From: Ruditapes philippinarum
Lineage: Eukaryota
Assembly (NCBI RefSeq): GCF_026571515.1
Contig: NW_026866080.1
Location: forward strand, 744,001 to 806,917
DNA length: 62,917 nt
Direction of reading: 5' to 3'
The notes under the pieces were generated by a model. The model saw nothing but the letters and a program-made list of their open reading frames with translations. It searched no databases and had not been told where the DNA came from. Shown piece by piece: positions 2,411 to 46,346 of this stretch. Position numbers and translations under genes: made by a program. Numbering within the stretch: the first letter of the stretch is position 1; every line of letters begins with the position of its first letter.

Positions 2411-5400
2411 CAAGGGTTCATTCCATTTGAGTGTATCATTTTCAAATCCACCAAATATTAATATTTCACCATCAGTGGAACAAAACGCTGTATGCCATTC
2501 TCTAGGTTTACAAAAAGGCATTGTTATCTGTGACCACTGTCTGTCGGTCACATTCAATTGCCAAGCATCACCTGTTCATAGCAAAGGAAAGAAAAATATG
2601 AATGAAATAAGATTTTCAAATATTAATAAACCCCCCACCACAAAGCAACAACAAAAAACAAGAAGGCCAAGATGGCCCTCAATTGCTCACCTGACCAATT
2701 GAACTAATCTGAGCAATTACCTAGACAAGTCAAAAATTGACCACTAGAGTGTTAACAAGATTTTTCCATATTTGGGCGGTGTGACCTAGTTTTTGACCCC
2801 AAGTGACCCACATTCAAATTTGACTTAGAAATCATCAAAACAAACTTTTAAACTAATTTCCAGGATATTTGGATCAAAACAGTAGCCCCTAGCGTGTGAA
2901 CAAGATTTTTCTATTTTTAGCTCCTGTGACCTAGTTTTTCATCCAAGATGACCCATGTTTGAACTCATCTGAACAATTATCTACAAACACATCCAAGCAA
3001 TAACCTACACAAGCATCCTGAAAAAGTTTGATGATGATTTGTCAAAAATGTGACCACTAGAGTGTTAAAAAGGTTTTCCATATTTGGGTGGTATGACCTA
3101 GTTTTTGATCCAAGGTGACCCATATTCAAATTTGACTTAGAAATCATCAAAACAAACTTTCAGACTAATTTCCTGGATACACAGTATTTGGATTAAAGCA
3201 GAATCCACTATATTGTGAACAAGATTGTTCTACTTTTAGCTCCTGTGACCTAGTATATCATCCGAGAATGACCCATGGTTGAACTCATCCAAGCAATTAC
3301 CTAGAAAAGCATCCTGACAAAGTTGATGACAACTCAGTCAAAAATGTGACCACTAAAGTGTTAACAAGGTTTCTCCATATTTGGGCAGTGTGACCTAGTT
3401 TTTGACCCACGATGACCCATATTTAAGCTTGACCTAGAAATCATCCAAACAAATTTTCAGACCAATTTCCAGAATATTTGGATCAAAACAGTAGCCACTA
3501 CAGTGTTAACAGGATTTTTCTATTTTTAGCTCTCGTGACCTTGTTTTTCATCCGAGATGAGACCAAGGACAACAGGTGATGGCCATTCTACAATCCTTAA
3601 AGCTCACCCTGAACAATCTCAGATGAGCAAAAAAAAAAAAGAAAGAAAAAACTGGTTACTTCGATTAAAATATGGATTGAGAAATCAACTAACTAACTTA
3701 AAGACACAAAGTTGTCAGAATATCCACCATAAAGGAAGATAACTTCATCTGAGACAGCTGTAAAGGTATGCCATGATCGTCCACACGGACACGCACCTTC
3801 AACATATAACCTGAAATGTAAAATACATACGAGTTAAAAGCTTAAAGTACCTTAATGTACTCTTAGGAAATATATAATTTGGACTTTATTGTTGTAGTTA
3901 AATGAACAGTACATTTTTTAGCTTATATATTACATATATACAAGTAATATAATGAAAAAAAAACACAATTTTTAGGTCTGAGAGATTAATTTCAAAGAAT
4001 AAGAATGATAAACCTTGCATTATAATTGTACAACAATGCAAGAAAAAATTGATATTAATCTACATACTAATATGACATAAAAACAAGAATCATTAAAATT
4101 TGTTGAAGTACATCAAGTAAATTCAAGGGACTCCAGTAAGTTTTTTTTTTTTTTTTTTTTACATTACCTAACTGGAAATAATTTTTCAACATTAAAATTC
4201 AATTGAATGAAGCGTTAGATCAATATCTTTGTGCAAAATTTCAGATCATTCAAGCTCACTTCATTTATTCAAAATAACTATTCTTATTGTGAACAAGAGC
4301 TGTCACCCAAGTGACGAATGCCCCCCGAAAAGGTTTCTTAAGCATACAGGTATTATGAAAAGAAAAGAGAATGAAAGTAATTAATTGCTTAATATTGATC
4401 TTTGTATTATAGTACCTGTAATCTCTAATTGTGATAGCGTTAACCTTCAAAATATAAGTGTGACCTTGACCTTTAAAGAAGGGATGTGGTTTCTTGATGC
4501 GACAGATTGTTGTTATGAGATAGACATTTGTGCCAAGTTATTTAAAAATCCCTCAATGCATGACAAAGTTACAGTCTGGGCATAATTGTTGTGTAAGTGG
4601 GGACACACGGACAAATGGACATGAGCCTTAGCCAAGACACATTCTCTTGATGTGGTAAACATTTGTGCCAATTTATTTTAAAATCCTTCAATGCATGACA
4701 AAGTTACAGCCTGGACACGAATGTGTATCTTCAAACACTTCTAGAGAGAACGAGTACTTTCAAACTATAAGTGTGACCTTGACCTTGAAGGTAGGGTCAT
4801 GGGTTTTAGTCGTGACACATCGTCTTGATATGGTAGACATTTATGCCTAGTTATATTCAAATCCTTCCATGCATGACAAAGTTACAGTCTGGACATGAAA
4901 TCCACATCCATACAAAAATAACCAGTAACCAGGTGCACAACTACACATGCTGATCAACATTCCTGTAAAGTTTCATGACCCTAGGTCAAATACTTTTTGA
5001 GCTATATGTGACACAAGTTAACAAGAGCCTGATTTGAACCTGGTGATGCTCCCCAAATAGGTTTTGGACACAAGAAAGTACACCTCTTGTAGTTTCAGGG
5101 TTATGTCTCTTGAAAAAATTGCAATAAGTCCAAAATTAGGCAAGGCAGAGAAACTGTTCTTTGCACTGCACTTTTAATTTATGCCATCTATCAACCTACA
5201 AAGTTTCTTGTTGATAACTCTTATGGTTTCTGAGACAAAGTTCAATATGTAAAAATGAACAAAGGGCAATAACTACAAAATTTGGCAAGGCGGAGTTTAA
5301 GTTCTTGTGCACTTCACATCTACCTATTGAGATCTACCTACCTACAAAGTTTGATATAGATATCTCTTATAGTTTTAGAGTGATGTCCCAGACAAGATTT

Positions 5401-8400: not shown

Positions 8401-11400
8401 GCAAAGGTTCATGACACTAGGTCAAATACTTTCTGAGCTACGTGCAACACAAAATGAGAATGGAGGGACAGACAAGGGTAAATCTAAATGCACCCACCCC
8501 CCTTCCTAAAGTGGGGGCACAATAATTAGTTTTTGAGATATAAAAATAATAGCATTTCTGTGACATAATTGGCCTTTAAAGTGCTACTGTAATTATTAGG
8601 TTTATTGTAAATTCTTAAACAATATTTCCTTTAAATAATAAGTAAAATATATGCATGTACTTACTCTCCTGACCAAGTGAGAGTTTCTAATTCTAAGGAA
8701 TGTAGATCATTCATTCTTATGTCGCCATGACGACCACCAAATAAATATACCACATTTTTTAATCTGACTGCTGTGTGAGCGGCTCGAGGAACTGGTACTG
8801 GTCCCTGAAGCAGATACAAGGTACATGAATTTTATAAAGGTGTTGGTACTGGTCCATGAAACAGATAGAAGGTACATGAATTTTATAAAGACATAGGTAC
8901 AATGTACTGGTGTGTGAAATAAACAGAAGGTCCATGAATCTATAAAATATTGATATTTGTCCATGAAACAGACAGAAAATACATGAATTTTATAAAGACA
9001 TAGGGAACTGGTGCATGAAAAAAACAAAGGTACATGAATTTATAAAGGTGTTGATGCTGGTTCATGAAACAGACAGATGGTACATGAATTTATAAAGGTA
9101 TTGATACTCAGGTTCATGAAACAGACAGAAGGTTCATGAATTTATTAAGGTATCGGTACTGGTTCATGAAACAGACAGATGGTACATGACTTAATAAAGG
9201 TATTGAGACTGGTCCATGAAACAGACAGATGGTACATGACTTAATAAAGGTATTGAGACTGGTCCATGAAACAGACAGATGGTACATGACTTAATAAAGG
9301 TATTGAGACTGGTCCATGAAACAGACAGATGGTACATGAATTTATAAAGGTATTGAGACTGGTCCATGAATTAGATATAAAGTATATGTTTATTGTCATT
9401 TTTTCAATTGAAACAGACAGTTAAAAACTTTTAATAGCCACTGACAGATACAGTAGGTCCTTATTAATTGGACCCCTATTTTTGCAAAAATATGCCAAAG
9501 TTTCTATAAGCTTGCTTGACAACATATGAGCCGCGTCACGACAAAACCAACATAGTGGGTTTGCGACCAGCATGGATCCAGACCAGCCTGCACATCCGCG
9601 CAGTCTGATCAGGATCCATGCTGTTCGCTATCAGTTTCACTACTTGTAATAGGGTTGGTAAGCGAACAGCATGGATCCTGATCAGACTGCGCGGATGCGC
9701 AGGCTGGTCTGGATCCATGCTGGTCGCAAACGCATTATGTTGGTTTTGTCGTGACACTTGGGTTACTCCATCTATTGCTTTCTAAATCATACACAAGAAG
9801 TTGATTATTCCACTGATTGTCTTTCAGCTGTGGTGAAACAAACATAACACCAATATATCGCTCACCTGATTACATTTGAGTATATGAAAATATGCACAGA
9901 GTCTAAATTTCATGGCAGTAATTAAAAAAAAAAAAAGAAAAAAAAAGTAGAACATATTCTAGATCAACAGTTTTACACTTAAATTGCATGTCAGGTTATT
10001 TAGAGGGTTGTAACACAAAACACAAAAAGGACGTCCACAAAATCAAAATCAAGGTCAACTAAATTCTTCATCTGAAAGTGTCCATTATAGTTCAAATTTC
10101 ATAGCTGTAGTTCTAACTGCAAAAAAAAAAAGGTGACTTCGTCATAGTCTAGGTCAACTAATAATTAAACCTTGTACATAGTTGACAAAAATTGTCATCA
10201 TCAGTACATATATCTCATTTCTGAAAATTAAAAGAGCTACAGCTGTAGTCATGGAAAAACAGTCACTCAGGTTGCAATGGAAAAACAAATGTTTATATGA
10301 AATTCTCTGGTTTGTTATAGAAAGTGAATGGTTGCTATGGAATTCATTGGTTGCTATGGAATGTAAATAGTTGCCATGAAAGGCACAGCAGGGTTAATTT
10401 TGACCTCAGGGTCATGATTTGAACAAACTAAGTATAAGCCAACAAGGCACTAGACAATGCTTCGCATCAAATATCTAGGCTCTTGGCCTAACAGTTACAG
10501 ACCGATTAACGGCTTTTCCTATTTGAGACTAAGTAAAATAGAATAACCTCCAGGGCCTGGCTAATTTTTACTCCAAAGCTACATGTATAATTAGAACAAG
10601 CTTGGTAGAGTATTATAAGGAGATGCTACATACTTAATATTTAAACTTAAGCTATTCAATTTGAGTTGAATGTGTTATACCCTTGGGGAGATAATGAATG
10701 GAAACTGAAAATTTCATATCATTTTCAAAGTGGAAGGGGCAATACTCTGCCAAAAATCATTGAACCAAGACCAAATTCAAACTTGACCTGCGCATTCCTT
10801 TGACATATCCATATGTGAGATTTGAGTTAAATGTGTAATACCTTTGGGGAGATATTATGAACGGAAACTGAAAATTTCATCAAGGGGCATAACTCTTGTC
10901 AAAATTCATCGAACCATGACCAAATTCATACTTTACCTGTATTTTCTCATGATATATCCATATGTCAAATTTGAGTTGAATATGTGCAACTGTTACTAAA
11001 ATAATAAACGGAAACTGATGATGACGGAATGGCCAGTCATTTTATTGCGGGGGCATAAAAATTGGATTCAATTCTGGAACATGATGTGATTCAAATTCTA
11101 GAAGTTTATTGGTTGACTAATATAAGATGTGAATTAAATGAAAATATTACAGCATAACACATACATATCTGGAACCAGTGTTCTTGACAAACTGTCCATT
11201 TTCATAAAGATACGTTCCTGAATTTATATTCTCACCAAAACCTCCGAAATAATATAATCTGAAGAGAAAAACATGTTTCTAATGTTGAATTACAAAAAAA
11301 AACCTCAGTTATTTCAACAAAGAATTTCAAATTAATACAATCCTGACATACAAAATTAAGTTACATTACTGTATTATACAGGATGTGTCCCCGACAGGGA

Positions 11401-14400
11401 CTTTGGATTCTTTCATGTGAGGAAGCAATCCAGCCAGCTAATGGAAAGTCAGTGTCTCTACTTAGGTGTCGGTTCATGCCTAAAATAATGCATGGCAGGG
11501 CACCTGAGGTCTTTCTCCACCAGAAAAGCTGGAACATAGCAATATGACCAAGACTGTGTTGGTGTGACGTAAAACCCAATCAAACAAACAAACATGATGT
11601 GTCCAAAGAAATCAAAACACTTTGTATGATCATTATTTATAAAATATAAGTTTGAAACAGCAGTGGCATAAGACATGTTTACCTCTGCCGAATCATCAAA
11701 CTGGAGAGCCATGGTGGCCCTGGATATCTCACCTGAGATATAACTATTGCTAAACAAGAGCTGTGGGTAGGACAGCAAAGCTCGACTATTCTTAGTGCTT
11801 GATAGTAAAAGAGACTTGATAATGTAAAATTTTCTAAATTTACAAAAGGGCAAAATTTTTCTTTAAATCCATGTTACAGTTATAGGCCTTGGAAAGAGTC
11901 CTATAATGCTCTCAAAGAAGAGTATAAAATTTCAACTTGTTTCAGTGCCAGATATCAATAGAATATGAAAATATCTGAGGTGGTATGCAAATTTAAAAGT
12001 AAATTCTAAGTTGAAAAAGGGGCATTTTTCTGTCAAAAATGCTAATAAAGTTACCTCCTCCTGTCTACAGGTAGAGGTCATGATGGTGAACAAGTGTGCA
12101 AAGTTTCAAAGCCATATGTCCATGGACTTTGAAAATATTCTAGGTTTTACAAAAACTTTTACAAAAGTGGTTATGCAGACACCCACACTCGGGTGACTAC
12201 AATAGCTCTTCTTATTCTTATCGAATAGTCGAGCTAAAAAGGACATCTGTTTTATTTTTCATATGTTAAAGGCAATAATGACTTTACATTAGCTTTGTCA
12301 ATTTTTACCCAAGTTGCATATTTTTTTAAATATTTCTAGATGTCTGTTAATGTGCTATGAACTGCTTCATAACAAATCACGGTGTAAGCTCTTGGCACTG
12401 TAATTTCACATAAAAAGAATTAATTAATCTGAATGTGTTTTACTTTGCAAGTCTATATATAAGTGACCTCTGGGGCAAAAATAAATTTTGACCTCAGCGG
12501 CATGATTTACATAAATTTTGAAGTGGATTACAAATCAATGACCCCCATTGCGTTGCCATATTTTACCTCAGGGGCTTGACTTACATAGCTTTCGTAGCCA
12601 TCCACTAGGCAATGCTACATGCTAAATATTGAGACTCTTGTATTTTCACAAAAGATGACTTAAATGTATTTTCCTATACAGTTTATATAAACTAAGTGAC
12701 CCCTTTGGAAGGGCCAGTTTTGACCATAGGGGCATGATTTATATAACTTATATGCAAAATTAATATGAGCAGCGTCACCACAAAACCAACATAGTGCGTT
12801 TGCGACCAGCATGGATCCAGACCAGCCTGCGCATCTGCGCAGTCTGATCAGGATCCATGCTGTTCGCTATCAGTTTCTATACTTGTAATAGGGTTGGTTA
12901 GCGAACAGCATGGATCCTGATCATACTGCGCAGATGCGCAAGCTGGTCTGGATCCATGCTGGTCGCAAACCCATTATGTTGGTTTTGTCATGACGCAGCT
13001 CATATCTCAATCTGATCATTGCACTTGCAGAGAAGACACGAGCCAATAGAAGGCGGGCCATTTTTTTCCTGATTCGTGAAGGTCACTTTTGTTGTGACTG
13101 ATAAAGAAATCCAAGTGCACAGAACCTCTGCTCTAGCATGTACAGAAGTTACAAATTCCTTGCAAAAGGGATGGCAAGTAGTACTGGAAAAGTGCTTGAT
13201 GTGGTAGCTGAACTGTGCTCTGGTGATTTCAATGTGGCTTACTTATTAAAGTTACTGCCATGAACCAGAGGGTTTTAACTACCATCGCAACTACTACCAC
13301 CTAAATGTCATTCCTGAACACACTACACAACCACCACAAAAGCTACCCTCTAAAATGCCCAGGTAAGGTAAAAATAAAGCAAGTTAATAAATATTAGCCT
13401 ATCAATTGTTAAATACTTTTCATCAATTATTTCTTACTTGTTATTATAGGACCAAGCTGTAAATTTATCTCTAGGACTTGGTAACAGTTCTGATTCTGGT
13501 ATTATATGTTTCCATGTCAGCTGTTGTAAGTCTAAACAGTATAATTCATTTGTGTCGCCATTCTTCGTGTGACCTCCAAATATATACATCTTACTGGCAA
13601 TTAGTAAGCCTGAAGCACCAGAGGTTCCTGGTGGAATGTCACCCTCGGTTACATGTTCAGTCCTACAAAACCACAAAAAAACAACACCTGGTTACAATTT
13701 GTTGAAACAATAACATGTAAAAGGGTTCATTATAACTGAGTTACTCCTTACATTTATTATATGATACTGATATTGTAGTATTTACCACCATTTTTCTACT
13801 GTCTGATCAATGCATAACAGTTACATGTAGTGCTTTTTTCCCAAAATTTTGACATCTTTTTGTTAATTTACATTTGCAAACTACTTTCTTTGTTCACTTC
13901 ACAATATTTTACTTTTAAAATTTAATATACATGTGTATATAAATTTAAAAAACTTTAATAAAAATTAGCATGAATCATGCTTCTTTAACAAAATCTGCAA
14001 ACAATAAAGAATAAACTTCCATATGGGTGTGTTTTTTTTCTGCACTTACCAATAGCCAACATCAAGGTCTGTGTGATACACTGTAATGGTATTTGCAGGT
14101 AAATATTTTTCTCTAAATGAAAAATAATCACCCTGAAACAAACACGTTATGATAAATAAGATACATTTTTATTAAATATTTGAAATATTTTACAAAAGTG
14201 CAAAGTGATTGACAATTTATTAATATCATCTGCAAAACAATCAAGCTTCAGTCAAACCATGGTTCATGACATATATAGAAGATAAAGGTCTTGTTACCAA
14301 TGACTCATTGACAGACACTTTTTCTGTCGATTGGCCACTCAGTGTTTTTTACCAACAAAACATTGTTTGAGTAGGCAAATCATTTCAGGCCATAACAACA

Positions 14401-21244: not shown

Positions 21245-21492
21245 TGATCATCATCTTCTTTGATCATCATCATCATCGACATCACCAACATCACCATCAT
21301 CAACAAGCTATCATCATCATCATTATCATCATCAACAACACCACCAACATTATCATCATTGATCATTTTTATTGATCATCCTCATCACCATTGTCAAACC
21401 CGTCATCATCAAGCCATCATCGTCACTGATCATCATCATAATCATAATCAATGATCATCATCATCATCATGATCATAATTGATCATCATCAT
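21245..21492. repeat. Imperfect (ATC)n microsatellite at the unit junction
   Basis: catcat runs, with homologous tracts at 17886-17975, 24755-24965 and 28465-28540. Confidence 0.9.
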
Positions 21493-31434: not shown

Positions 31435-34400
31435 TTAGCACATAACACAGGTACTGCCCTGTCTTATAGCATCTGGCTCATATGCGTCTATAAATTTAGT
31501 ATTTTCAAGTCCTTTCCTCTTCAATAGCCAGTCATTTAGTGGTTTAGGTAGAATGGTCCATTTATCTGGCGAACAATGTATGTAAACAGTTTGTAGACAT
31601 ATTCTGAAAATATACAAGATACTTTACATTAACACTTTCCCTGCCAATGGAAAGACACATCTCATACAAACAATAATTTATCTGCCTAATTTTGTCATAT
31701 ATTATATTTGATTCAAGTTATGAAATAATTAATTTCATGTAAAGCTTTCTTAAACTTCTTCTAAAAGAAATATGTATATATAAATGGGAAAATACATCCA
31801 TAATTCAAAAAATAACAAAATTCTTACATATGCTAATAAATATACAGTAAACTCTTGGCGAAGATATGATACAGTGAGTTGTTAAGGCATCTGCCTCTCA
31901 CACCAGCTATTGTGTGTTCAAGCCTTACTCCAGTCACAACCAAGCTTTAAACTTCACCACAATCAAGCTACAAGTAATATATCTAAATACTTTTTTATGT
32001 TCAGTGCTTAAATTTAAACAGTATAACAGGTCATTTGTCAGCACCCAGTCACCTAATGTGAGTTTCTAGATTCTATACAGGTACTGATCTGTTTTGTTTT
32101 TCCACAAGCACCTGTCAACTTCTTATAAAATATATGGTATGGGAGGTTGATAAATGGAATTACCTATCAAACTAATTGTCATACTGTGTAAGTGATTAAG
32201 TGAAGATATGAAAATATTGGCGAATTTCACAAATTGATGAAAATCGCAAAAATTTCCTACAGCAGTAATATCAACCAACCTGTCTTTAATTCTACCCTTG
32301 CATGATTCACTTATATTTCCCTATGTTAAATGTCTGGAATTTTAAATTTGTTAATTTACAACATGCGGGGAAATATCCACTTACACATTATGTTACATCA
32401 AAATATTGTGCCTTGTTCAGCACTCAACCTTAACCACTTTTATGTCTCCAATGAGACGAAAGTCAGTCATCCTTCTTCCTGACCACGTTGTGTGCATTCA
32501 TGTTGATAACAAGAAGTAGGAATCTCTTCACTGACATTGATATTACACAAATTTAGTATGGCACAGGTCATTTGCATCAAAGGAATTGTATGCTATTTAT
32601 TCAAATAAAACTTTTAAGTCATTTTAAATCAAACATGTTAATAAACTACTGTTAAATATTTTTTGTACACATAACTTACCTTTGTAAACTATAAGGTTTA
32701 AGTTGGAAAGTCAGTACTTCATTTGATTGTTTCTGAAAAAAAAATTGCTTTGCCATTTTAGTCTTAAACATAAACAATTTATAAAAATCAAATCTGACCC
32801 TGTACTACAGTGGAATTTATTGTGGCCATTAGTTAATATTCTATAACAAAAGTTTGTCACAAAGTTTCATAATTTTTGTTCTAAAATATTGTGGATTTAT
32901 TCTCTAATAAAGCCCCCAAAAAGTATAAAAAATAGTAGAATTAAGAGAGCACAATCAAATGCATGTACACAATAAAGTAACAAAGCCACATTATATAACA
33001 TATGTACATATTATTTGATAAAGCTACTTCCTACTATATCAAACCACTTTTACCTCGGTCCATAACTTTACAAAAATATAAAATTTTGGGATCGATCACA
33101 AAACAATTATTGTGATTTCTGTTTTCATTTCGGTTTGAAACTTTCATTAATCATTATTTTGGCTAATATACTATGCCCAATAATGGTAAACATGTATCAT
33201 CAATCACAACAGGTATAGACCCAGGCCAGTCTGTATATCTGTACAGTTTGATCAAGTCTTTTCGTTTGGCTACTAACATTTTTTCGTCTTCATTTCAAAA
33301 AAAAGTTGAGAATGGACCATTCCCAAAAGGGAAGTTGGATGAATACATTTAAGAAATTCAGCAACTCACTGCAACTTCATCCCATCTGAGTATATCATTT
33401 TCACATCCACCAAATATTAATACTTCACCATCAGTGGAACAACACGCTGTATGCCATAGTCTAGGTTTAAAAAAAGGCACCGTTATCTGTGACCACTGTC
33501 TGTCGGTCACATTCAATTGCCAAGCATCACCTGGTCATCAACAAAAGAAAGAAAAAGAAAATATAAATGCAATAAGAATTTTCAGATACTTCATAATTTT
33601 TTAATTCAACATGTATTGTGTAAAATCTTGGATCCATTGAGGTCTTTGTATCACACACAGGTTATCTATTGTGTTATAAATATAGGATATTGAATGAATG
33701 AAGGTTCCCTAATGAATTTATTGAACAAGTTGAATAAAATATACATTATTCGAGCCTCTGGAAAGCAAAATATTATTTTATTCAACAAGTTCAATAAATT
33801 CAGTAATAAATCTACACAAGTTTTATATTCAATTAATCACATACCCAAAATAAAGACTATTTAAATTGCAAAAGAATCATTTATTCAATGATGCGCCTAT
33901 AGCATAATGCTAGCATTTAGCACAACTTTACAATATGTTTGTGTAACGAAAATGACATCATGTCAAAACATATGCACAGCCCTGCAATACCATTTTTACA
34001 GAGTTGTAAAATCGGAACGGGTATGTGATAAATTATTGTTTTTGCTTTTTCAAATGTATTTTGCTTTGGAACTGAAAATTTCTTTTTTTTTTCATAGTTA
34101 AAGGGGCATAACTCTGCCAAAAATCATCGAACCATGACCAAATTGAACTTGACTTGCGCATTCCTTTGACATATTATATATCCATATGCAAAATTTGAGC
34201 TGAATGTGTACTACCATTGGGGAGATAATGAATGGAAACTGAAAATTTCATCAAGGGGAATAACTCTGTCAAAAATCATTCAACAATGACCAAATTAGAA
34301 CTATCTATGATATATCCATATGTCAAATTTGAGTTGAATATGTGCAACCGCTACCAAGATAGAGAACGGAAACTGATGGTGGAATGACGGAAGTACAGAA

Positions 34401-37400
34401 TGACAAACAGGAGTAACCTGTTGTACAGGTAGGAGGCATGATTATGACCAAGTCTGCAAAGTTCTAAAGCCATATGTCAATGGACTTTGAAAATATTTGA
34501 CGTGGTATGCAAACTTTAACATGGACAATCAGGGAACTAGGATATGTCTCCTTATACCTCCAAAAGTCAAGCTAAATATGCTAATAATAAAAGAGTGCAC
34601 TGACTACAAGTTTCTCTAAGAAAATGACTTGTTTTCCTAAAAATTGAAATATTGTTATCATGAGTAAATCTCAAAGATAGTAATGTCCCAATAAAATTAC
34701 TCACTTAAAGGAACATTGTCAGTAGAATATCCGCCATAAAGGAAGATAACTTCATCCGAGACAGCTGTAAAGGTATGCCATGATCTTCCACATGGACAGG
34801 CACCTTCAACATATAACCTGAAATGTAAAATGCATGAGAGAAAAAAAAGCTCACAGCTCCCATAAAAAAGCCATACGAAACAGAAATTAATTTGAAATGT
34901 GATGTTGTGAAATAGTTTAGATAAGCAGTAATATAATCACAAAGGTTTTGAGGGATTAATTACAAATTCTAACATGACTTATGAGTTTGTCACCATAAAC
35001 AAAGATGGCAATAAAAAACTGGTGTAAAACTTGGCTGTTTTTGTTTGCATTAAAATGGATAAAGAATGGCACCATTTATATAACCAACAGCACCCTTTAT
35101 ATAATTAACAGTGTCATTCATATAACCAAAAGCACAATTTATATAACCAACAGATACCATTTATATATCCAACAACACCATTTATATAACCAACAGAACC
35201 ATTTATATAACCAACAGAACCATTTATATAACCATTCATTAGCAGTGTAATGATGTCATCCAGTGAGCATCTCATTCATAGAATGATTATCTAGCATGGA
35301 TGTTAACACTATACAATTCATAGTCATATGTAAATTTAAAGTGTTAAATTAATAATTGAACAAAATATATATACGATACATAAAGTTTTTTTCTTGTGAT
35401 CTTGTTTCTTTTTTATAAAACAGAACAGCCAGATATGAAAATTGGCAACGTAAAAATATTATTTATTTTGCCTTATTACAATTGAAATAATAAGGGTCTG
35501 AGCACATTTTTCGGTTATTTAACACCGGTTTGTGGTTTTTAAAATCATTTGTGGTCAATTCCTACACATCAACGCCAGCAGTTTGGGTAAAATAAGCGCT
35601 CAACAATTTAACCTTAAAAAAATTATAACTGCCAAATGATATATACTTACTCTCCTGACCAAGTAAGAGTTTCTAATTCTAATGAATGTAGATCATTCAT
35701 TCTTTTGCTGCCATGACGACCACCAAATAAATATACCACATTTTTTAATCTGACTGCTGTGTGAGCTGCTCGAGGAATTGGTACTGGTCCCTGAAACAGA
35801 TACAAGGTACATGAATTTATAAAGATATTGCTACTAGCAGTTACATGAAGTTATAAAGGTATTGATACTGGTGCATGAAACAGACAGAAGGTACATGAAT
35901 TTCTAATGATATTAAGACAGGTACATGAAATGGACAAAAAGTACATGAATTAATAAAGGTATTGGTACTGATTCATGAAACAGACAGAAGGTACATGAAT
36001 TTATAATGATATTGAGACAGGGATGTACATGCAATGGTACTGTTCCCTGAAGGTACCTACAGAAGGTATGTGTACTAAGGTACTGCTTCCAGAATAGGAA
36101 ATTTGTTGTTTATCCCTTATCTACTAATATAGCAATTGAATACTATTAATTTGATATGGAACAATTTTCTTATGTTTTTCTTAATAAATCTGTATTAATA
36201 AATAGGACATTCAAACTTTTGACTATTAATGATAGGAAAACAAAATGATTGAACAAATTTTGAATTTTTGTGTGTGAAATATTTGCTTATTCATTGCTTA
36301 AAAACTTAAAATAACCAGTAACATCTACATTAGCAACAAACAAAGAAAGGAGAACTACTTGACCGACAAAGAAAGGAAAACTACTTTAACAAACAAGAGC
36401 TGTCGGTAGGACAGCAACGCTCGACTATTCTTAGTGCTTGATAGTAAAAAAATTGCTTGATACAGTTACCTCCTCCTATTTACAGGTTGGGGTAATGATG
36501 GTGAACAAGTGTGCGAAGTTTCAAAGCCATATGTCAATGAACTTTGAAAATATTTGAGGTATTACAAAAACTTTAACATAAATTCTAAGTCGAAAAAGGA
36601 GCATAATTCTGTCAAAATGCTTGATAGATTTACCTCCTCCTGTCTACAAGTTGGGGTCATGATGGTGAACAAGTGTGCAAAGTTTCAAAGCCATATGTCA
36701 ATGGACTTGGAAAATATTTAAGGTATTACAAAAACTTTAACATAAATTCTAAGTCGAAAAAGGGGCATAATTCTGTCAAAATGCTTGATAGAGTTACCTC
36801 CTCCTGTCTACAGGTTGGGGTAATGATGGTGAACAAGTGTGCAAAGTTTCAAAGCCATATGTCAATGGACTTTGAAAATATTTGAACTATTACAAAAACT
36901 TTAACATAAGTGGTTACGCCGACGCCGACGCTCTGGTGACTGCAATAGCTCTACTTATTCTTATCGAATGGTCGAGCTAAAAATGTAGGTACAAAATAAT
37001 TTGATCATGAATTTTGATATGAACACACAGCAGAATAAGTAATAAGTATAGTACATGAAACGAGTTAGTTACGAGGATATAACACTGGCTGGGGTGACAT
37101 CAAGCCATGATCAAGGGATGTTTCTGCTAAAATAAATCGCGAGACCGTTAGGCCGAGACTAATTAGTATAATCATAAATTATAAGCTATTAGAATATGAT
37201 ATCTTTAAAGAAGTCTAAATATAAACATATATGCCCATGAACTATGATGTACATATAAGTGATTTGAACTTAATCCATATGACTGTTAAGAGAACTAACA
37301 AGAGCTGTCAGTAGGACAGCAACGCTCGACTATTCTTAGTGCTTGATAGTTAAAAAAATGCTTGATACAGTTACCCCCTCCTATTAACAGGTTGGGGTAA

Positions 37401-40400
37401 TGATGGTGAACAAGTGTGCAAAGTTTCAAAGCCATATGTCAATGGACTTTGAAAATATTTGAACTATTACAAAAACTTTAACATAAATTCTAAGTCGAAA
37501 AAGGGGCATAATTCTGTCAAAATGCTTGATAGAGTTACCTCCTCCTGTCTACAGGTTGGGGTCATGATGGTGAACAAGAGTGCAAAGTTTCAAAGCCATA
37601 TGTCAATGGACTTTGAAAATATTTGAACTATTACAAGAACTTTAACATAAGTGGTTACGCCGACGCAGACGCCGACACTGACACCGACGCCGACGCTCGG
37701 GTGACTGCAATAGCTCTACTTATTCTTATCGAATAGTCGAGCTAAAAATGTCAAGGTCAGTCAGTACAAGCTTACTTGACTGAATATCTCATACCTTGCA
37801 CCTTGGGTTACTCCATCTATTGCTTTCTATATCATACACAAGAAGTTGATTATTCCATTCCCTGTCTTGTGGCTGTAAAAGAAACGAAAAGTGAAGTGCA
37901 TTTCCCTATCACAATTTCCATTAAAATAAGATGATACATGTACTTTTCTCAATATGGTAATGTTGAAAAAGACCTAGCTTATAAAAGATTTCTTCTATAC
38001 ACATATATTCCTTAATTGATAGATGCCTAGTCTGACCTTTAATTTAAACTGTATTCTTTTTTTAAGAAATATTTCAGACTGAAGTTTCTTTTTCTACTCC
38101 ACTAATCTTATACCGGTTATTCAAATTGAACTGATTAGGATCATGAAGGGACCTATGCATTGCTGTTAAAATGAGAAATTTAATCATTTAACATCTTATG
38201 ATACACATTATCTTGTATAATAAACTGTATAAAATAGAAACTTTTTCTATAAAATAGATTTAACCAGAGACCAGTATACAAAATTTATGATTTAACACAT
38301 ACCTACCATGGTTTCAATGTTTGCACAGTAATATGGGCAAATACATACAGTAATGCTTTCTGTCGCAAATTAATATAAAATAGAGAATTATCTATACAGT
38401 GTTTCTGGATACTGTACCAGTAATTAGTTTTTCACTTTTGCAAACAGCTTTGAAAGATTAATATCTTCAGCAAAACTAGCTTAAAAAACACTTTTAAATG
38501 CATCTACACGTCATTGTTGCCTCACTAGTTTTGGAGGGAGTGGGTTGGGTTATAAAACACACTGACAGTGTAACGGTCATATGGTACCATCCGGTTAGCG
38601 TTAGACTGTTAATCGGCCAATCTTGGTCCGATTCGCAGATGTGCAGGTCAATTTCATTGTGGTTGATCATGAAATCCTTTCTACAGTCATTTGCACTGTA
38701 CCTCTGCTCTGGCATGTACAGAAGATATTAGATATTGGTTCCTTGCAAAAGCGAAGGCAACTAGTACTGGTAAACTGCTTGACAGTCCACCAATGTACAA
38801 TGCGGTGGCTGAACTGTGCGTTGGTAAATTCATTGTGGCTAACTGCCGTGATCCAGAGTGAAAATTACCAACACCACCACCACTATGGTCATATGGCGTC
38901 CCTTCATTATTTCAAGCACAGAGGGCACTGAGTAGAACCATTAACATTCTGTGAGCTAAATGGACTAAATTAAAAGATTCAAAGTCCCTGATGAGATTCA
39001 AACCAACAGCAGTGAAGGAAGTAGAAAGAATATCACTGTTCCTCCATTCATTATTTTAGGTTCTAGTGATTACTGTAGACTATGATTTAGTAGATCCATT
39101 GGCATCCCCTTAACTGGTGGATAACTTGCATGATAGGCTACAGACTCACACCAGCATGGACGTAATGCTTGGAAACCTTATACCTGAACATCTCTACAAC
39201 AGTTGTCTTTAATTATTTCAAATTCAATCAACCAAGAAAATATATGCTTAATACAGATCAGATATAATGAAAATATATAGCAAACTGTAACAACAAAACA
39301 CATACTACTGTGGAATTAGTGTCCATGACAAACTCTCCATTTTCATAAAGATACTTTCCTGTTCTTATATTCACACCAAAACCACCAAAATAATATAATC
39401 TGAAGATAGGAAAAAAATTAAAGTATAATGATGTTATTTGAGCACCATGATTGAGCACCATGATTTTAAGCATTTCAAAATAAATTATGGTAATTAGTAT
39501 AATCATAAATTATAAGCTATTAGAATATGATATCTTTATAAAAGTCTAAATATTAACATATATGGCCATGAATTATGATGTATATATAAGTGATTTGAAC
39601 TTAATCCATATGACTGTTAAGAGAACTTAAAATGTAGGTACAAAATAATTTGATCATGAATTATGATATACAAGTTATATGAACACACAGCAGAATAAGA
39701 ATATATAAATGTTAATTATTATGAATACTTTAAACACCTGTTTAGTATTAAGCTTAGAAAATAAACCCAAAAATATATCTTTTGTAAAAATACTTTTCTA
39801 AAAAGATTTACTTGTTATTATAAGACCAAGCTGTAAATTTATCTCTAGGACTTGGTAGCAGTTCTGATTCTGGTATTATATGTTTCCATGTCAGCTGTTG
39901 TAAGTCTAAACAGTATAATTCATTTGTGTTGCCTTCCTCCGTATGACCTCCAAATATATACATTTTACTTGCAATTAGTAAGGCTGAAGCACCAGAGGTT
40001 CCTGGTGGAATGTCACCCTCGGTTACATGTTGGGTCCTACAAAAACCACCAAAAAAAACAACACCTGGTTATATTTGTACATATCAGACACAAATCTCTA
40101 CTATTACATTGGCACCAAATAAAAAGTCAATCTTTCGACATTTCAAAGCAGGTATCGGGTGAATAAAGAAATAAGTATAATATATGTATACATACATGTA
40201 TAACTAGACTGTAGACATAAACTTGACTTTTGGAAACACTTTGATAATTTGTCAAAAATTCTGTGCAAAGGGATGATAACTCTTAACAAGAGCTGTCGGT
40301 AGGACAGCACGCTCGACTATTCTAAGTGCTTGACAGTAAAAGAGCCTTGATAATGTTAAATTTTTTAAGTTCACAAAAGGGCTAATTTTTTTTTATAAAT

Positions 40401-43400
40401 TCATGTTATAGGCCTTAGAGAGAGTCTAATTATACAGTATTGGCTTGACTATTCGGAAGGTAATGTCACAAGGGTGTTTTATTGAGTATAATAATACTAA
40501 TTACCTATGAATACATAAATTTGACAGACAAGGTACAAAGGCTTGTTATTAAGATGTTTTATCAAGTAAATCACTGCTTTATTATTATGAATGCATAAAA
40601 TTGTCCCAAAAAAGGCACAAACCCTTCAGTAGTTATTGAGATAACAGCTTACAAACAAAACTTTACCATGAAAAAGGGGAGAAAAATCAGCCTAAATGCA
40701 AGATAGAATTATGGATCTTTGTCAGTGACCTACAATTATGACCCTAAATGCATATGTGAAGTTTTAAATAAATATCTTTAACCCATTACTTCATGAGCAT
40801 TTTGTGAAAAATGGCTGTTTTCATTGAAAAGTCTCCCGTTACAAGTTCAAATTGCTATAATACTATACAAACTGCTTCAACACTAATCAAACTTGGCACA
40901 AATGTTGACTGGACCATTGACCTTGCAACAACATGCTCAGGCTTAAATTTTCTGTTACCATGGCAACGAGGGGACATCTCAAAATTGCCAAAAATCACTA
41001 TTTTGCGATGATTTTTTCCATTATAATTGATTTCAAAGTGCTGCAACTTCTCAATGGATTGAGATAGAGTCAAATGCTTTTCAGCGTTGGTTACACGTTA
41101 CGTTATGATCAATCTGGGGTCATTTAGAGCCTCTCACAAGTCCAAAATTTTCTTGGCGATGAGGGGGACTCCGCTCCCCTTCAAACCGCCCAAACAGAAG
41201 GGGGCACATCCCCCTTCTGGCAACCCCCTGATGTATCTTTTAGTTGGGGGGCCGCGCCGAAAAAGTGGTCACTTTTTTTAACAACATTTCTCAAACAAAA
41301 ACAAGTGTTAAGGGCCTAAATAATGCATTTTTTCACCATTTGAGACAACAAAAAGGGGGGGGGGGTGAAAAAGGCGTTAAAAGGCGTGTATATGAAGTAA
41401 TGGGTTAATAGTTATTGAGATATGTAAAACTTGCATGTAAACATTAACCAAGAGACTAAGTAGAAAAGGGGATATGAATCAGCCTTAATGCAAGATAGAG
41501 TTATGGAACTTGGTCAGTGACATACAATTATGACCCTCAAATTATCACCCTAAGTGCATGTGTAAAGTTTCAAGTAAATATCTTTGAAGACCTTTAACCT
41601 TTAACCAAAATTTCTAAGTTTCAAAGGGGCAAATAATTCTGCAAATATTGCAGGCAGAGATATGCAATTTTGCAAACTAATGTACATTGTTACTACAAAA
41701 AAGTGTTTTAAATTTCAATTGAATATCTCAAGCAATAATTGAGATATTTGACTTTACAAAAAAACTTTAACCAAAATTTCTAAGTTCCAAAGGGGCATAA
41801 TTCTGTCAATATTGTAGGCAGAGTTATCCAACTTGTCAATCTGATGTACCTTGTTACTATAAATAAGTATTGTAAGTTTAAATTGAATATCTCAAGCAAT
41901 AATTGAGATATTTGACTTTACAAAAAACTTTAACCAAAATTTCTAAGTTAAAAAGTGGCATAATTCTGTCAATATTGTAGGCAGAGTTATCCAACTTGTC
42001 AATCTGATGTACCTTGTTACTATAAATAAGTATTGTAAGTTTAAATTGAATATCTCAAGCAATAATTGAGATATTTGACTTTACAAAAAACTTTAACCAA
42101 AATTTCTAAGTTAAAAAGGGGCATAATTCTGTCAATATTGTAGGCAGAGTTATCAAACTTGTCAATCTGATGTACCTTGTTACTATAAATAAGTATTGTA
42201 AGTTTCATTGAATATCTCAAGTAATAATTGAGATATTTGACTTTACAAAAAAACTTTAACCAACGCAGACGCCAACGCGGACGCTGACCCCGACGCCGGG
42301 GCGACTACAATAGCTCTCATATTCTTCGAATAGTCGAGCTAAAAACGCTTTTAGAATTTGGCATAAAAAAATGTTCATGCAATTTCTCAATACATTTAAT
42401 TGTCAATGCCTTTATAACATATTTTTTTATGACCGGGTCCCCCATTAATAATCATTGTTCTATTACCAAAGTAAAAAGAACTGACCATCAACATTATAAC
42501 AAATTATCACTTCATTTTTTTTTGTTACCTTGTAACTAGATCCTAAATTCTTCTGTTTAAAAATAAAACAAAACAAAAAAGTACACAAAAACATTTCTTA
42601 TAATTTTAAGTTATAAGTTAATCTTGTGTGAAAAGTGTAAAATAGAAGTAAAGTCCATTTTTGAACTACATGTACCAAAATTGGTGGCACTTAATTTCTA
42701 TTTGAATATTGTTTTTATTTTACTTACCAATAACCAACATCAAGGTCTGTATGGTACACCATAATGGTTTTTGCGGATAAATATTTTTCTCTATATGAAT
42801 TATAATCATCCTGAAATAAACACAAGCTATTAAATAACCGTAAACATGAAATACTTCCATATAAAAGTAGTTTTTAAATTCTAATCTACAAGTTCATTTA
42901 ATCATTTATCCTGTCAAAGTTCATTTTGCATTTTAAATCAGATGTGAAGAATCCTAAAACTGTGAATGATTGCAAGGTGCTCCAATTGAAAACAGAAGTG
43001 TTGCACCTGTGTAGGGCTTCCATTGAGTTTCAAAATTTGGAAGTCAGAGACTGCAAAATCTCTGATACTGGAAGTCACATTATATAGGTTTTTTTTTCTT
43101 TTTTTGGAGGGGGGGGGGTTTACGCCACATCGACACAGTAATAGGTCATATCGCGATGTTCCAGCTTTACTGGTGGAGGAAGACCTCAGGTGTGTGCATT
43201 ATTTCAGGCAAACATTATATAAATAAAGAAGGAAAAGTAATAGATATTAGAAGTCACAAGCGAATATCAAGGATAAAATGACTCCAAAACTTCCATTAAC
43301 GGAAACCCTGTGAATCAGACAGACAGACAAACTAGCATGAAACACCAAATCATGCAAATGACACATTTAAAACGAAAAATGTAAAATAACAAGAGCTGTC

Positions 43401-46346
43401 GGTAGGACAGCACGCTCGACTATTCTAAGTGCTTGATAGTAAAAGAGCCTTGATAATGTTAAATTTTTTAAGTTCACAAAAGGGCTAATTTTTTTTATAA
43501 ATTCATGTTATAGGCCTTAGAGAGAGTCTAATTATACAGTATTGGCTTGACTATTCGGAAGGTAATGTCACAAGGGTGTTTTACTGAGTATAATAATACT
43601 AATTACCTATGAATACATAAATTTGACAGAAAAGGTACAAAAGCTTGTTATTAAGATGTTTTATCAAGTAAATCACTGCTTTATTATTATGAATGCATAA
43701 AACTGTCCCAAAAAAGGCACAAACCCTTCAGTAGTTATTGAGATAACAGCTTACAAGCAAAACTTTACCATGAATTTCTAAGTTGAAAAAAGGGGAGAAA
43801 AATCAACCTTAATGCAAGATAGAATTATGGCTCTTTGTCAGTGACCTACAATTATGACCCTAAATGCATATGTGAAGTTTTAAATAAATTTCTTTAACAG
43901 TTATTGAGATATGTAAAAATTGCATGTTAACATTAAATAACCAAGAGACTAAGTAGAAAAGGGGATATGAATCAGCCTTAATGCAAGATAGAGTTATGGA
44001 ACTTGGTCAGTGACATACAATTATGACCCTCAAATTATCACCCTAAGTGCATGTGTAAAGTTTCAAGTAAATATCTTTGAAGACCTTTAACCTTTAACCA
44101 AAATTTCTAAGTTTCAAAGGGGCAAATAATTCTGCAAATATTGCAGGCAGAGTTATGCAATTTTGCAAACTGATGTACATTGTTACTATAAAAAAGTATT
44201 TTAAATTTCAATTGAATATCTCAAGCAATAATTGAGATATTTGACTTTACAAAAAACTTTAACCAAAATTTCTAAGTTAAAAAGGGGCATAATTCTGTCA
44301 ATATTGTAGGCAGAGTTATCCAACTTGTCAATCTGATGTACCTTGTTACTATAAATAAGTATTGTAAGTTTCAATTGAATATCTCAAGCAATAATTGAGA
44401 TATTTGACTTTACAAAAAACTTTAACCAAAATTTCTAAGTTAAAAAGGGGCATAATTCTGTCAATATTGTAGGCAGAGTTATCCAACTTGTCAATCTGAT
44501 GTACCTTGTTACTATAAATAAGTATTGTAAGTTTCAATTGAATATCTCAAGCAATAATTGAGATATTTGACTTTACAAAAAACTTTAACCAAAATTTCTA
44601 AGTTAAAAAGGGGCATAATTCTGTCAATATTGTAGGCAGAGTTATCCAACTTGTCAATCTGATGTACCTTGTTACTATAAATAAGTATTGTAAGTTTCAA
44701 TTGAATATCTCAAGTAATAATTGAGATATTTGACTTTACAAAAAACTTTAACCAGCGCAGACGCCGACGCGGACGCTGACGCCGACGCCGGGGCGACTAC
44801 AATAGCTCTCATATTCTTCGAATAGTCGAGCTAAAAAATGAATAGATTTTTTTCTTATCTGAATTCCCCATTAATAGGCTTTGGCTACTTTCATATTATT
44901 TTCTTTTTATAATGGATGTGGCTAGCCGTACAGGCCCGTACAGCTAGCCAAAAGTTCTAGCCGTACGTGAGTCACGTACGACTAGCCAGGACACACTGTA
45001 TTGGCTAGCCGTACGGCACTTTTCAAAATTATATGGAAGTCGAAAATGCATATGTTATTTTATGACTTTAAGTGAGGATTTGTACAAGACACAGCAATTG
45101 TCTTCGTATGTTTACTTTTTAGAGATTAATCACCTTGTTTGCTGGCTTAATAAAGAAAGTATACGAATACAGTATATATTTTTGTCATCTCAAGACGTCG
45201 AGAAAAAATAGCGTTTGGTTGCAGTAAAATAACATCAATTGAAATAGTTTACAAAACTTTGATATTTTTTTTTGTTTCATTTAGTTTAATTTTCAAATAA
45301 AAAAAAAATAATAAAAAAAAACGCCGAAAATAATTGTTGTTGGGCTCTGATAATTGCGTCAATTACCGACGGTATAGAAGTTTGTCCATCATTAAGGAAA
45401 GTTTGCCTTAATTAAGGCTTATTAATTGATTGTGCTTTTATGTTCGATATTTAAAATTATCTACTGTATTTGAAAATTATTAAATTATTTTTGCTTTTCA
45501 CCGTTTTTTTTTCAGTATTCTTTTTATTTACTTATTTATTTATTTAATTATTTATTCCCCTCCGATCATTATTTATTCGATCCATGTGCTTAATTAACAA
45601 AAATGATTTAACAATTCATCTTTCATACAAATAAAACAACAAATCATAAGCATGAAAATCAAGGACGTTATAACTTATAACATACAACTTTGACACTTTT
45701 ATCAAAATAGATTATACAACGCTTGTTCGTATTCATTTTTTTTACAAAATGGCGGAGCATCTTTATTAAAGTGAACACACTAGGACAAATGCGGAGACTT
45801 GATTAAAATCCTCGTTAAAGACACATAATAACATATGCATTTTCGACTTCCATATAATTTTGAAAAGTGCCGTACGGCTAGCCAATACAGTATGTCCTGG
45901 CTAGTGGTACGTGACTCATGTACGGCTAGAACTTTTGGCTAGCCGTACGGGCCAGTACGGCTAGCCACTTCCTTTTATAATGGAGCCTTATACAGCCAAA
46001 GTCTCAAGTAAGGCACCAAAGACATAGGTCAAATGATTGGGCGAGAAAAATGTGCAGTTCAGGGGGATACTGTTCCACCTTGTGAGCTGTCAGGGTGCTT
46101 ACACATCTCCCTTCATTAGTCAACTGTTCTGTACAGTGACCTAATTAATAACTGTTAATTGATTACCAAATTTTATACCAGAATACATTTTTTACAAGTT
46201 AAAACAGATATTAAACTGTTAAACTATTAAAGGGAACTTGTCCTTACCTTGTACCCTCCCCAAACAATCATCAAGTTATTCTCTGCCACGGCGACGTGTC
46301 CAACCCTTGGTGGGACAGTTTTAACCATAGTGGCTGTAGCATTCAT
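31435..46346 (-). CDS. KLHDC2: Kelch domain-containing protein 2/1-like, paralog B (intact, 10 exons, 404 aa), CRL2 substrate receptor
   Basis: Exons 46346-46248, 42810-42728, 40036-39812, 39399-39306, 37872-37795, 35790-35651, 34817-34705, 33530-33370, 32732-32680, 31603-31435, summing to 1215 nt in frame. Motifs: six kelch GG motifs, PRAAH, GGRH..RMND, GRSWH, KPRLWHTAC, BC-box PYSLQRICL, and cullin-box-like LPKPL. Confidence 0.9.
35068..35235. repeat. 21-bp minisatellite
   Basis: Unit accatttatataaccaacag(a/c), about 8 copies. Confidence 0.8.
36392..36983 (-). mobile_element. HINE element (164-bp family, 3 units)
   Basis: Same termini and unit as 14421-15177. Confidence 0.8.
37297..37748 (-). 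mobile_element. HINE element (164-bp family, 2 units)
   Basis: Same termini and unit as 14421-15177. Confidence 0.8.
40285..42345 (-). mobile_element. HINE element (163-bp family) with nested piggyBac-like MITE
   Basis: Termini aacaagagctgtcggtaggacagc ... gaatagtcgagctaaaaa. Near-identical to 43388-44838. Confidence 0.8.
40782..41404. mobile_element. Non-autonomous piggyBac-like element
   Basis: TTAA TSD (40778-40781, 41405-41408), 13-bp perfect TIR CCCATTACTTCAT, and an empty site in the sister HINE at ~43894. Confidence 0.9.
43388..44838 (-). mobile_element. HINE element (163-bp family)
   Basis: Exact 163-bp period (identical spurious ORFs at 44349 and 44512), (GACGCC)n, and subterminal IR. 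Confidence 0.8.
44914..45972. mobile_element. Non-autonomous Mutator/MULE-like element
   Basis: ~140-bp TIRs (ggatgtggctagccgtac / gtacggctagccacttcc) and a perfect 9-bp TSD ttttataat. Confidence 0.85.

What the first reader, a model, noticed from the sequence alone, without database searches (positions are those of the whole stretch)
2411..46346. KLHDC2-like paralogs diverge specifically in substrate-facing loops
Seen: strand segments are nearly identical, but loops after the GG motifs and in the PRxxH positions differ (A/B): PRAGH/PRVGH, GGCQGDYFSF/GGYKDDYNSY, GHTKNGD/GHTEEGN, GENINSGT/GVNIRTGK, KNTGSRYLKDNQW/MDTNSTVPQDREW, RHGDIR/RHGSKR, YSDNFVSL/YSTDNVPL, PREWH/PRLWH, GGFENDTLKWNEPL/GGCENDILRWDEVA. 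The residues matching the KLHDC2 carboxylate-binding Arg, Arg and Ser (GGR...RMND, GRSW) are kept in both. Inference: the duplicated C-degron receptor was selected for new degron specificity, suggesting a diversifying E3 family (immune or quality control).
Basis: partly seen in the sequence, partly recalled or inferred. Interest (0 to 1): 0.7.

Follow-up and report, generated by a model that had tools for sequence, protein, structure and literature searches.

The report
Clam C-degron receptor duplicate, pocket remodelled
A clam has two neighbouring copies of a gene for a protein-disposal receptor (KLHDC1/2 family); one copy stayed conservative, while the other kept its fold but changed the face that binds targets and lost a likely membrane-anchor signal, so it likely recognises different targets or none, and the version in this assembly is broken by a small transposon.

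Summary
In detail: two tandem 10-exon KLHDC1/2 genes (Manila clam) differ at 40 of 132 top-face loop residues but 11 of 195 core residues (P=2e-9), a split not seen between orthologs. (1) The change is one-sided: 38 polarised changes fall on copy A, 12 on B. A lost near-invariant pocket-rim residues (human numbering Y50C, R189N, L320E, C338F, L342-site I>T) while keeping the Arg-Arg-Ser anchor, BC box and a constrained core (dN/dS 0.17), which refutes simple decay. (2) Positive selection is not shown: A's top-face dN/dS is about 1.5 but not significantly above 1, and A's termini run as fast. (3) In this assembly A's exon 5 has lost its last 7 bases and splice donor to a 232-base inverted-repeat element; three other samples lack that junction, so it is most likely an allele. 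Bivalve orthologs and B end in a CaaX-type motif that A has displaced. The genome holds two loci plus one haplotig, not a diversifying family. Verdict: asymmetric duplicate with a remodelled pocket; new specificity about even odds against relaxed decay of binding.

The parts
16300..16398 (-). Copy A exon 1 (start ATG, blade 1 PRAGH..GGCQ)
   Evidence: 100% to P0001 1-33
14050..14132 (-). Copy A exon 2
13438..13662 (-). Copy A exon 3 (blade 2, K147 site)
11165..11258 (-). Copy A exon 4 (long blade-3 loop)
9757..9827 (-). Copy A exon 5, lacking its last 7 bases and GT donor in this assembly; in-frame TAA follows 7 codons into the element
   Evidence: B exon 5 is 78 bases with GT
9524..9755 (.). 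232-base inverted-repeat (MITE-like) element, one arm clipped, abutting A exon 5; high-copy family; not seen at this junction in 3 of 3 other samples laid
   Evidence: (40 of 490 candidates scored, 96-100% identical)
8665..8804 (-). Copy A exon 6 (R236 and R241 sites)
3698..3810 (-). Copy A exon 7 (S269, W270 sites; compensating 3-base indels in the loop)
2411..2571 (-). Copy A exon 8 (blade 6: L320E, C338F, I>T at L342 site). Exons 9-10 lie outside the window at G000:C14567:734862-734914 and 730267-730441
46248..46346 (-). Copy B exon 1
42728..42810 (-). Copy B exon 2
39812..40036 (-). Copy B exon 3
39306..39399 (-). Copy B exon 4
37795..37872 (-). Copy B exon 5 (intact donor)
35651..35790 (-). 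Copy B exon 6
34705..34817 (-). Copy B exon 7
33370..33530 (-). Copy B exon 8
32680..32732 (-). Copy B exon 9 (end of propeller, start of BC box)
31435..31603 (-). Copy B exon 10 (BC box, cullin box, CaaX-type end CVMC, stop)

Best explanation
A young tandem duplication of the clam's single KLHDC1/2 gene diverged asymmetrically: copy B kept the ancestral sequence and likely the ancestral job (an Elongin B/C-cullin receptor for di-Gly C-termini, predicted to be prenylated), while copy A kept the propeller core, the carboxylate anchor and the BC box but replaced pocket-rim residues and lost the CaaX-type end, so its intact allele likely acts as a soluble receptor for a changed set of C-termini. 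Shown: gene structures, one-sided change, constrained core, kept anchor, lost rim residues, displaced tail Cys, broken allele in this assembly. Inferred: which residues line the pocket (from alignment to KLHDC2 and kelch geometry), prenylation, expression of A, and any new specificity. The rim changes cluster on blades 1, 3 and 6 and largely spare the anchor blades 4-5, which would keep C-terminal anchoring while altering what fits upstream of the last two residues; Y50C with C338F is a big/small swap between adjacent blades and L320E puts an acid at the position that S269 holds in the neighbouring blade.
For: A+B are sisters (100/99) with branch lengths 0.19 vs 0.056. 38 A-derived vs 12 B-derived changes, 25 ambiguous (P=3e-4); on the top face 24 vs 4, 12 ambiguous. 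Of columns at least 70% conserved in 43 outgroup homologs, A lost 7 of 46 on the top face and 1 of 52 in the core (P=0.024); B lost 0 of 39 and 0 of 51. A core dN/dS 0.17, below 1 at P=2e-7; A top 1.48 vs B top 0.49, P=6e-4. R236, R241, S269, K147, W191, W270 sites identical in both, Y163 site Phe in both as in 26 of 43 homologs; these are the C-terminal-binding residues named in PMC11470957 and PMC11377542 (passages). A-derived changes in anchor blades 4-5: 2 of 31, other blades 22 of 101 (P=0.063). Model of P0001: pLDDT 91.6, best match KLHDC2-EloB/C, TM 0.83. No stop or frameshift in A's other nine exons. In 3 of 3 other samples all 6 contigs reaching 9757 leave the reference there instead of entering the element, and the loose-end consensus ends in the missing exon bases and donor. 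Cys at -4 in 7 of 9 named bivalve species and B; A has 2 extra residues.
Against: Positive selection is not established: P=0.086 under a synonymous clock, 0.36 and 0.64 if A's synonymous rate is 1.5x or 2x; top dN over gene-wide dS 0.97-1.25 with intervals spanning 1; branch-site test P=0.17, 0.90, 0.036, 0.36 and it vanishes when double-base mutations are allowed. A's termini are equally fast (1.35), as expected if everything outside the fold was released. Keeping 7 anchor residues is unsurprising at a 15% loss rate (0.85^7 = 0.32, arithmetic). A probable null allele exists in a living animal. Expression of A is unresolved: 4 of 9 RNA reads at 8719 carry the A letter in run X21, none in X23; no X21 read lay on exon 5; only 4-6% of each RNA run was read and no spliced joint of A was among the rows shown. 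The paper that lists the upstream-chamber residues (PMC6294321) was not held.
Confidence: 0.5

Rival explanations
1. Relaxation, not new function: after duplication A lost the need to bind substrates and to be prenylated, so its binding face and tails drift at the neutral rate, while the core stays constrained only because a misfolded or Elongin-trapping product is costly; A is on its way to loss.
For: A top-face and terminal dN/dS are both indistinguishable from 1; 7 of 46 conserved top-face columns lost is near the roughly 20% expected from neutral drift over half of dS 0.18-0.20 (arithmetic); tail motif displaced; donor-less allele in this assembly; thin RNA support.
Against: Core held at 0.17, not different from B's 0.08 (P=0.30), is strong constraint for a useless protein; anchor blades are spared (2/31 vs 22/101, P=0.063); point estimates stay above 1 in every setting; the broken junction was absent in 3 of 3 other samples.
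Confidence: 0.37
2. Simple decay: A is a pseudogene and its differences are random.
For: Exon 5 donor loss with an in-frame stop in this assembly; the RefSeq model XP_060573402.1 bridges it only by reading 8 intron bases that follow TC, not AG.
Against: 11 of 195 core vs 40 of 132 top-face differences; core dN/dS far below 1; no other stop or frameshift in 406 codons; the lesion is not in three other samples.
Confidence: 0.07
3. Assembly artefact or gene conversion: A and B are two haplotypes of one gene, or conversion homogenised the core and left the loops.
For: The assembly holds uncollapsed haplotigs (C15853 repeats B's 5' part at 90-96%).
Against: A and B introns do not align end to end; dS 0.17-0.20 against 3 differences in 225 bases between B exon 3 and its haplotig; single samples hold contigs of both types; synonymous divergence is the same in core and loops.
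Confidence: 0.03

Closest known systems
Human KLHDC2 (CRL2 di-Gly C-degron receptor; PDB 6DO3, 8EBN, 8SH2)
   Same: Six-blade kelch propeller plus BC box; best sequence (E 6e-78) and fold match (TM 0.83); R236/R241/S269, K147, W191, W270 sites kept in both clam copies.
   Different: Clam genes are co-orthologs of vertebrate KLHDC1 and KLHDC2 (tree). They lack the Gly-Ser self-inhibiting tail (PMC12035522, section 13); B ends in a CaaX-type motif instead. A has Cys, Asn, Ser, Glu, Phe, Thr at the Y50, R189, P293, L320, C338, L342 sites.
Human KLHDC1 (CUL5 receptor for di-Gly ends; PMC7458402 passage)
   Same: Same clade; same anchor motif per PMC11568203 discussion. Clam cullin box reads LPKP, which fits the LPxP Cul5-box pattern (pattern recalled).
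   Different: Cullin choice of the clam proteins untested; no Cys at -4 in 0 of 18 named vertebrate proteins retrieved.
KLHDC3 and KLHDC10
   Same: Show how KLHDC paralogs change degron preference through the pocket around a carboxylate anchor (PMC11568203, abstract, sections 7 and 13).
   Different: They are ancient paralogs with the anchor moved to other blades; here the anchor stays in place in a young duplicate and only the rim changed. Much weaker matches (E 2e-26 to 2e-24, 22-23% identity).
Asymmetric evolution of young tandem duplicates (general, own knowledge)
   Same: One conserved copy, one accelerated copy, segregating null allele.
   Different: Acceleration is confined to the ligand face and tails of a structurally well-understood E3 receptor.

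Membership tests
KLHDC1/2 subfamily | Six-bladed kelch beta-propeller without BTB/BACK | tested here: met
   Pfam PF24681 212.6 bits and only kelch families; model and fold search
KLHDC1/2 subfamily | Closest relatives are KLHDC1/2, not KLHDC3/10 or LZTR1 | tested here: met
   PDB sequence search: 7 KLHDC2 sequences at E 1e-73 to 1e-78, next LZTR1 at 2.5e-31; fold ranks. The tree held no KLHDC3/10 rows.
KLHDC1/2 subfamily | Arg-Ser-Arg carboxylate anchor at the KLHDC2 positions (R236, R241, S269) | tested here: met
   identical in A and B
KLHDC1/2 subfamily | C-terminal BC box and cullin box | tested here: met
   exons 9-10 in both copies; Leu, Cys, Val and Leu-Pro columns kept; helices in model 347-387. 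Binding to Elongin B/C itself not tested.
KLHDC2-type di-Gly receptor | Conserved lining of the pocket upstream of the last two residues | tested here: inconclusive
   B keeps family consensus; A departs at columns with Tyr 36/40, Arg 32/43, Leu 42/43, Cys 33/43, Ile 37/43. Which of these touch the degron could not be read from the primary structure paper or from coordinates.
KLHDC2-type di-Gly receptor | Binds and degrades -GG C-termini | not testable with these tools
   needs peptide binding or reporter assay
KLHDC2-type di-Gly receptor | C-terminal Gly-Ser degron mimic for self-inhibition | tested here: not met
   B ends CVMC, A ends CVVHVC; this is a trait of vertebrate KLHDC2, not of the subfamily
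CaaX-prenylated proteins | Cys at -4 followed by two mostly aliphatic residues | tested here: met
   met for B and 7 of 9 named bivalve species; not met for A (Cys at -6 and -1). Prenylation itself untested; PMC11152559 passages describe CaX and CaaaX lengths, none longer.
Expanded, diversifying E3 family | Many paralogs in the genome | tested here: not met
   exon searches of G000 gave 2, 3, 2 and 2 matches; the third is a haplotig of B
Expanded, diversifying E3 family | dN/dS significantly above 1 at the binding face | tested here: inconclusive
Pseudogene | Fixed disabling lesion and neutral evolution throughout | tested here: not met
   lesion present here but not in 3 of 3 other samples; core dN/dS 0.17

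The most novel reading that the evidence does not exclude
Bivalve KLHDC1/2 is a prenylated, membrane-tethered C-degron receptor (plausibly patrolling the ER face where truncated SelK/SelS lie), and in the Manila clam a duplicate was adaptively released from the membrane and re-cut on blades 6, 1 and 3 into a receptor for a new class of C-terminus with the KLHDC2 anchor left in place: a natural specificity-switch mutant of a PROTAC-grade E3, for which clams segregate a transposon-made null allele.
Probability: 0.25. Interest if true: 0.7.

Novelty: new variant of a known kind. Interest (0 to 1): 0.42.

Why it matters
KLHDC2 is a model C-degron receptor and a drug-recruited E3; known specificity differences come from ancient paralogs about 25% identical. 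A pair differing at only 75 of 401 residues, with the anchor fixed and a handful of near-invariant rim residues swapped, gives a short list of substitutions with which to test how the pocket reads residues upstream of the C-terminus. The conserved CaaX-type tail of bivalve orthologs, not found in my paper searches, would mean a different way of placing and regulating this receptor than the vertebrate self-inhibiting tail. If A binds nothing, it is an ordinary duplicate losing its function.

Tried and rejected
Further paralogs: four exon searches of the own genome found only A, B and a haplotig of B's 5' end; the contig ends at the window's right edge. Haplotig exon 1 has three small insertions (+1, +1, +2) against B; allele or sequencing error not resolved. 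Clam transcripts in metagenome contigs: 12 loci, all 23-32% identical kelch proteins, none used. No Ruditapes protein other than P0001 among 67 hits, so no database protein for B or for an intact A was found. First read lay over 12 kb was swamped by repeat-derived reads; most rows were not shown, so it neither shows nor excludes spliced A transcripts. Positive selection tests: not robust (home-written codon models with two amino-acid-only outgroups, no outgroup DNA; one search dropped 11 N-terminal codons, codons from 380 on and 272-274, leaving 362). Gene conversion of the core rejected. Primary structure papers PMC6294321 and PMC10080726 not held; searches for rim residue names found no listing beyond a docking contact to Arg189. 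No paper on this duplication among the rows listed (12 of 1,979 listed, none holding KLHDC2). Complex prediction was not run: no suitable partner sequence was at hand. Earlier scan notes: none near this place.

Full report
What is there. The window is the last 62.9 kb of a contig in a 1.41-Gb genome. The best homolog hit is a RefSeq model named kelch domain-containing protein 2-like, Ruditapes philippinarum, from a contig of the same length as ours (XP_060573402.1, P0001), and it matches copy A at 100% in most exons. Two 10-exon genes lie head to tail on the minus strand: B at 31435-46346, fully in the window, and A from 16398 to 13.7 kb left of the window. Both match human KLHDC2 best by sequence (E 6e-78 for P0001) and the model of P0001 matches it by fold (pLDDT 91.6; TM 0.83 to KLHDC2-EloB/C). 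In a 24-row tree A and B are sisters (100/99) next to Mercenaria, and vertebrate KLHDC1 and KLHDC2 group together (90/84), so the pair are co-orthologs of both.

The observation. All motif pairs are present. A and B differ at 75 of 401 aligned residues (3 positions at A's break and 2 tail residues left out): 40 of 132 on the top face, 11 of 195 in core and bottom, the rest in the termini (P=2.2e-9). The top face is the substrate side in this family (PMC11568203, discussion read). Loops are often variable, so I used orthologs as control: B vs Mercenaria 32/132 vs 35/195 and Mercenaria vs P0003 31/132 vs 60/195; the A/B split differs from both (P=0.0011, 6e-7). Synonymous divergence is similar in both regions (P=0.71), dS about 0.17-0.20 overall, pairwise dN/dS 1.3-1.7 on top and 0.14-0.18 in the core.

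One copy moved. With two outgroups, 38 changes are A-derived, 12 B-derived and 25 ambiguous (P=3e-4); tree branches are 0.19 vs 0.056. At columns at least 70% conserved among 43 homologs, A lost 7 of 46 on the top face and 1 of 52 in the core, B none of 39 and 51. By the alignment the lost ones include the sites of human Y50 (Cys in A; Tyr in 36 of 40), R189 (Asn; Arg 32 of 43), P293 (Ser), L320 (Glu; Leu 42 of 43), C338 (Phe; Cys 33 of 43) and L342 (Thr; Ile 37 of 43). The residues that bind the C-terminal end, R236, R241, S269, K147, Y163 (Phe in both copies), W191 and W270 (PMC11470957 and PMC11377542, passages), are kept. R189 is described as lying in the more distal part of the SelK pocket in a docking study (PMC12169847, passage). 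That Y50, L320, C338 and L342 line the upstream chamber is my inference from kelch geometry (Y50 and C338 hold the place that R236 holds in its blade, L320 the place of S269) and from recall; the primary paper was not held. A-derived changes are scarcer on anchor blades 4-5 (2 of 31) than elsewhere (22 of 101; P=0.063).

Selection or release. A home-written codon model with amino-acid-only outgroups gave dN/dS for A of 1.48 (top), 0.17 (core), 1.35 (termini), and for B 0.49, 0.08, 0.49. A's core is below 1 (P=2e-7) and no different from B's (P=0.30); A's top exceeds B's (P=6e-4) but not 1 (P=0.086; 0.36 and 0.64 if A's synonymous rate is 1.5 or 2 times B's). A branch-site test on 362 codons gave P=0.17, 0.90, 0.036 and 0.36; the one positive setting assumes a clock and no double-base mutations. 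So simple decay is refuted, but the data do not separate adaptive remodelling from neutral release of the binding face.

The broken allele. B's exon 5 is 78 bases and ends at GT. A's stops after 71 bases against a 232-base inverted-repeat element with one arm clipped; the frame runs into TAA 7 codons later. The element is a high-copy family (40 of 490 candidates scored, 96-100% identical). RefSeq's Met-Leu-Gln at 191-193 is reproduced by reading 8 intron bases preceded by TC rather than AG, so those residues are most likely a modelling bridge. In runs X2, X6 and X7 (three studies), all 6 contigs that reach 9757 leave the reference there; at least two are A-specific (X2 record 1, 9757-9988 with no other letters; X7 record 12), none enters the element, and the loose-end consensus in each run ends in the missing exon bases and donor, with three letters shared across runs that differ from B. 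Each consensus mixes two contigs (agreement 0.70-0.83) and contigs drop rare variants, so this shows an allele without the element and strongly suggests an intact donor; it gives no frequency. Expression of A is unresolved: 4 of 9 X21 reads at 8719 carry A's letter, X23 had none, and no X21 read lay on exon 5.

The tail. 22 of the 81 proteins retrieved have Cys at -4 (redundant isoforms included): 7 of 9 named bivalve species (misses: a Mizuhopecten model that stops early and an Ostrea isoform), 3 of 7 gastropods, 0 of 2 cephalopods, 0 of 18 vertebrate proteins. B ends CVMC; A has two extra residues and ends CVVHVC. This fits a conserved CaaX prenylation signal lost in A (inference; CaaX, CaX and CaaaX substrates are described in PMC11152559, passages). 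Human KLHDC2 instead ends in a Gly-Ser degron mimic that self-inhibits (PMC12035522, section 13). Searches listed no paper linking KLHDC1/2 to a CaaX box; the two CaaX mentions in PMC7458402 are general; 15 of 7,538 and 15 of 52 papers were listed, and subscription papers and supplements were not seen. Whether A's tail extension is fixed is untested.

Family size. Exon searches of the own genome gave 2, 3, 2 and 2 matches. The third lies on C15853, which follows B's 5' part and upstream DNA at 90-96% over about 15 kb and differs from B exon 3 at 3 of 225 bases: a haplotig. There is no expansion, and nothing here points to immunity.

Verdict. Real, ordinary in kind (asymmetric tandem duplicate), unusual in how cleanly the change maps to the ligand face and tail of a well-known E3 receptor. 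I put 0.5 on A's intact allele being a working receptor with altered preference, 0.37 on released binding with a still-constrained fold, 0.07 on plain decay, 0.03 on artefact.

Papers. Seen: PMC11568203 (abstract, sections 7 and 13, reference passage); PMC11470957, PMC11377542, PMC12169847, PMC7458402, PMC11152559 (passages); PMC12035522 (passages, section 13). Not held, nothing read: PMC6294321, PMC10080726. Other titles: search listings only. The LPxP Cul5-box pattern and the BC-box consensus are recalled.

Noticed in passing
window 17887-27800 (minus strand exons near 19.1-20.2, 22.6-23.7 and 26.1-27.2 kb): A 3.5-kb unit repeated about 2.8 times at 97.4-97.6% identity lies between the two KLHDC genes; each unit carries three exons of a Cdc25 phosphatase catalytic domain, including the HCEFSSERGP active site (PDB matches to CDC25A/B/C, E 2e-18 and 3e-8). 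Real exon-block triplication or assembly artefact not resolved.
   Followed up: partly
bivalve homologs P0002, P0004, P0006, P0025, P0026, P0028, P0033; window 31435-31449: Conserved CaaX-type C-terminus in bivalve and some gastropod and annelid KLHDC1/2, absent in the vertebrate proteins retrieved.
   Followed up: partly
window 8787-9393 and 35773-36021: The intron end and acceptor of exon 6 are tandemly repeated (about 50-base unit) upstream in both copies; in the copies of A that were printed the acceptor AG reads TG or AC.
   Followed up: no
G000:C15853:1-29926 (L015-L017): Haplotig of B's exons 1-3 and upstream DNA; exon 1 has three small insertions against B that break the frame: null allele or read error.
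   Followed up: partly
window 12763-13005: Second, full-length copy of the same inverted-repeat element in intron 3 of copy A, 94% identical to the one at exon 5.
   Followed up: no
window 48093-49289 and 49885-50409 (minus); 57559-58206 (plus): Long open frames (398, 174 and 215 codons) upstream of B with no convincing Pfam match.
   Followed up: no
window 14420-15180, 36392-37750, 41405-44837, 58728-59853: Several 163-168-base tandem arrays and a 95-97% duplicated block in intron 2 / intron 1 of B.
   Followed up: no
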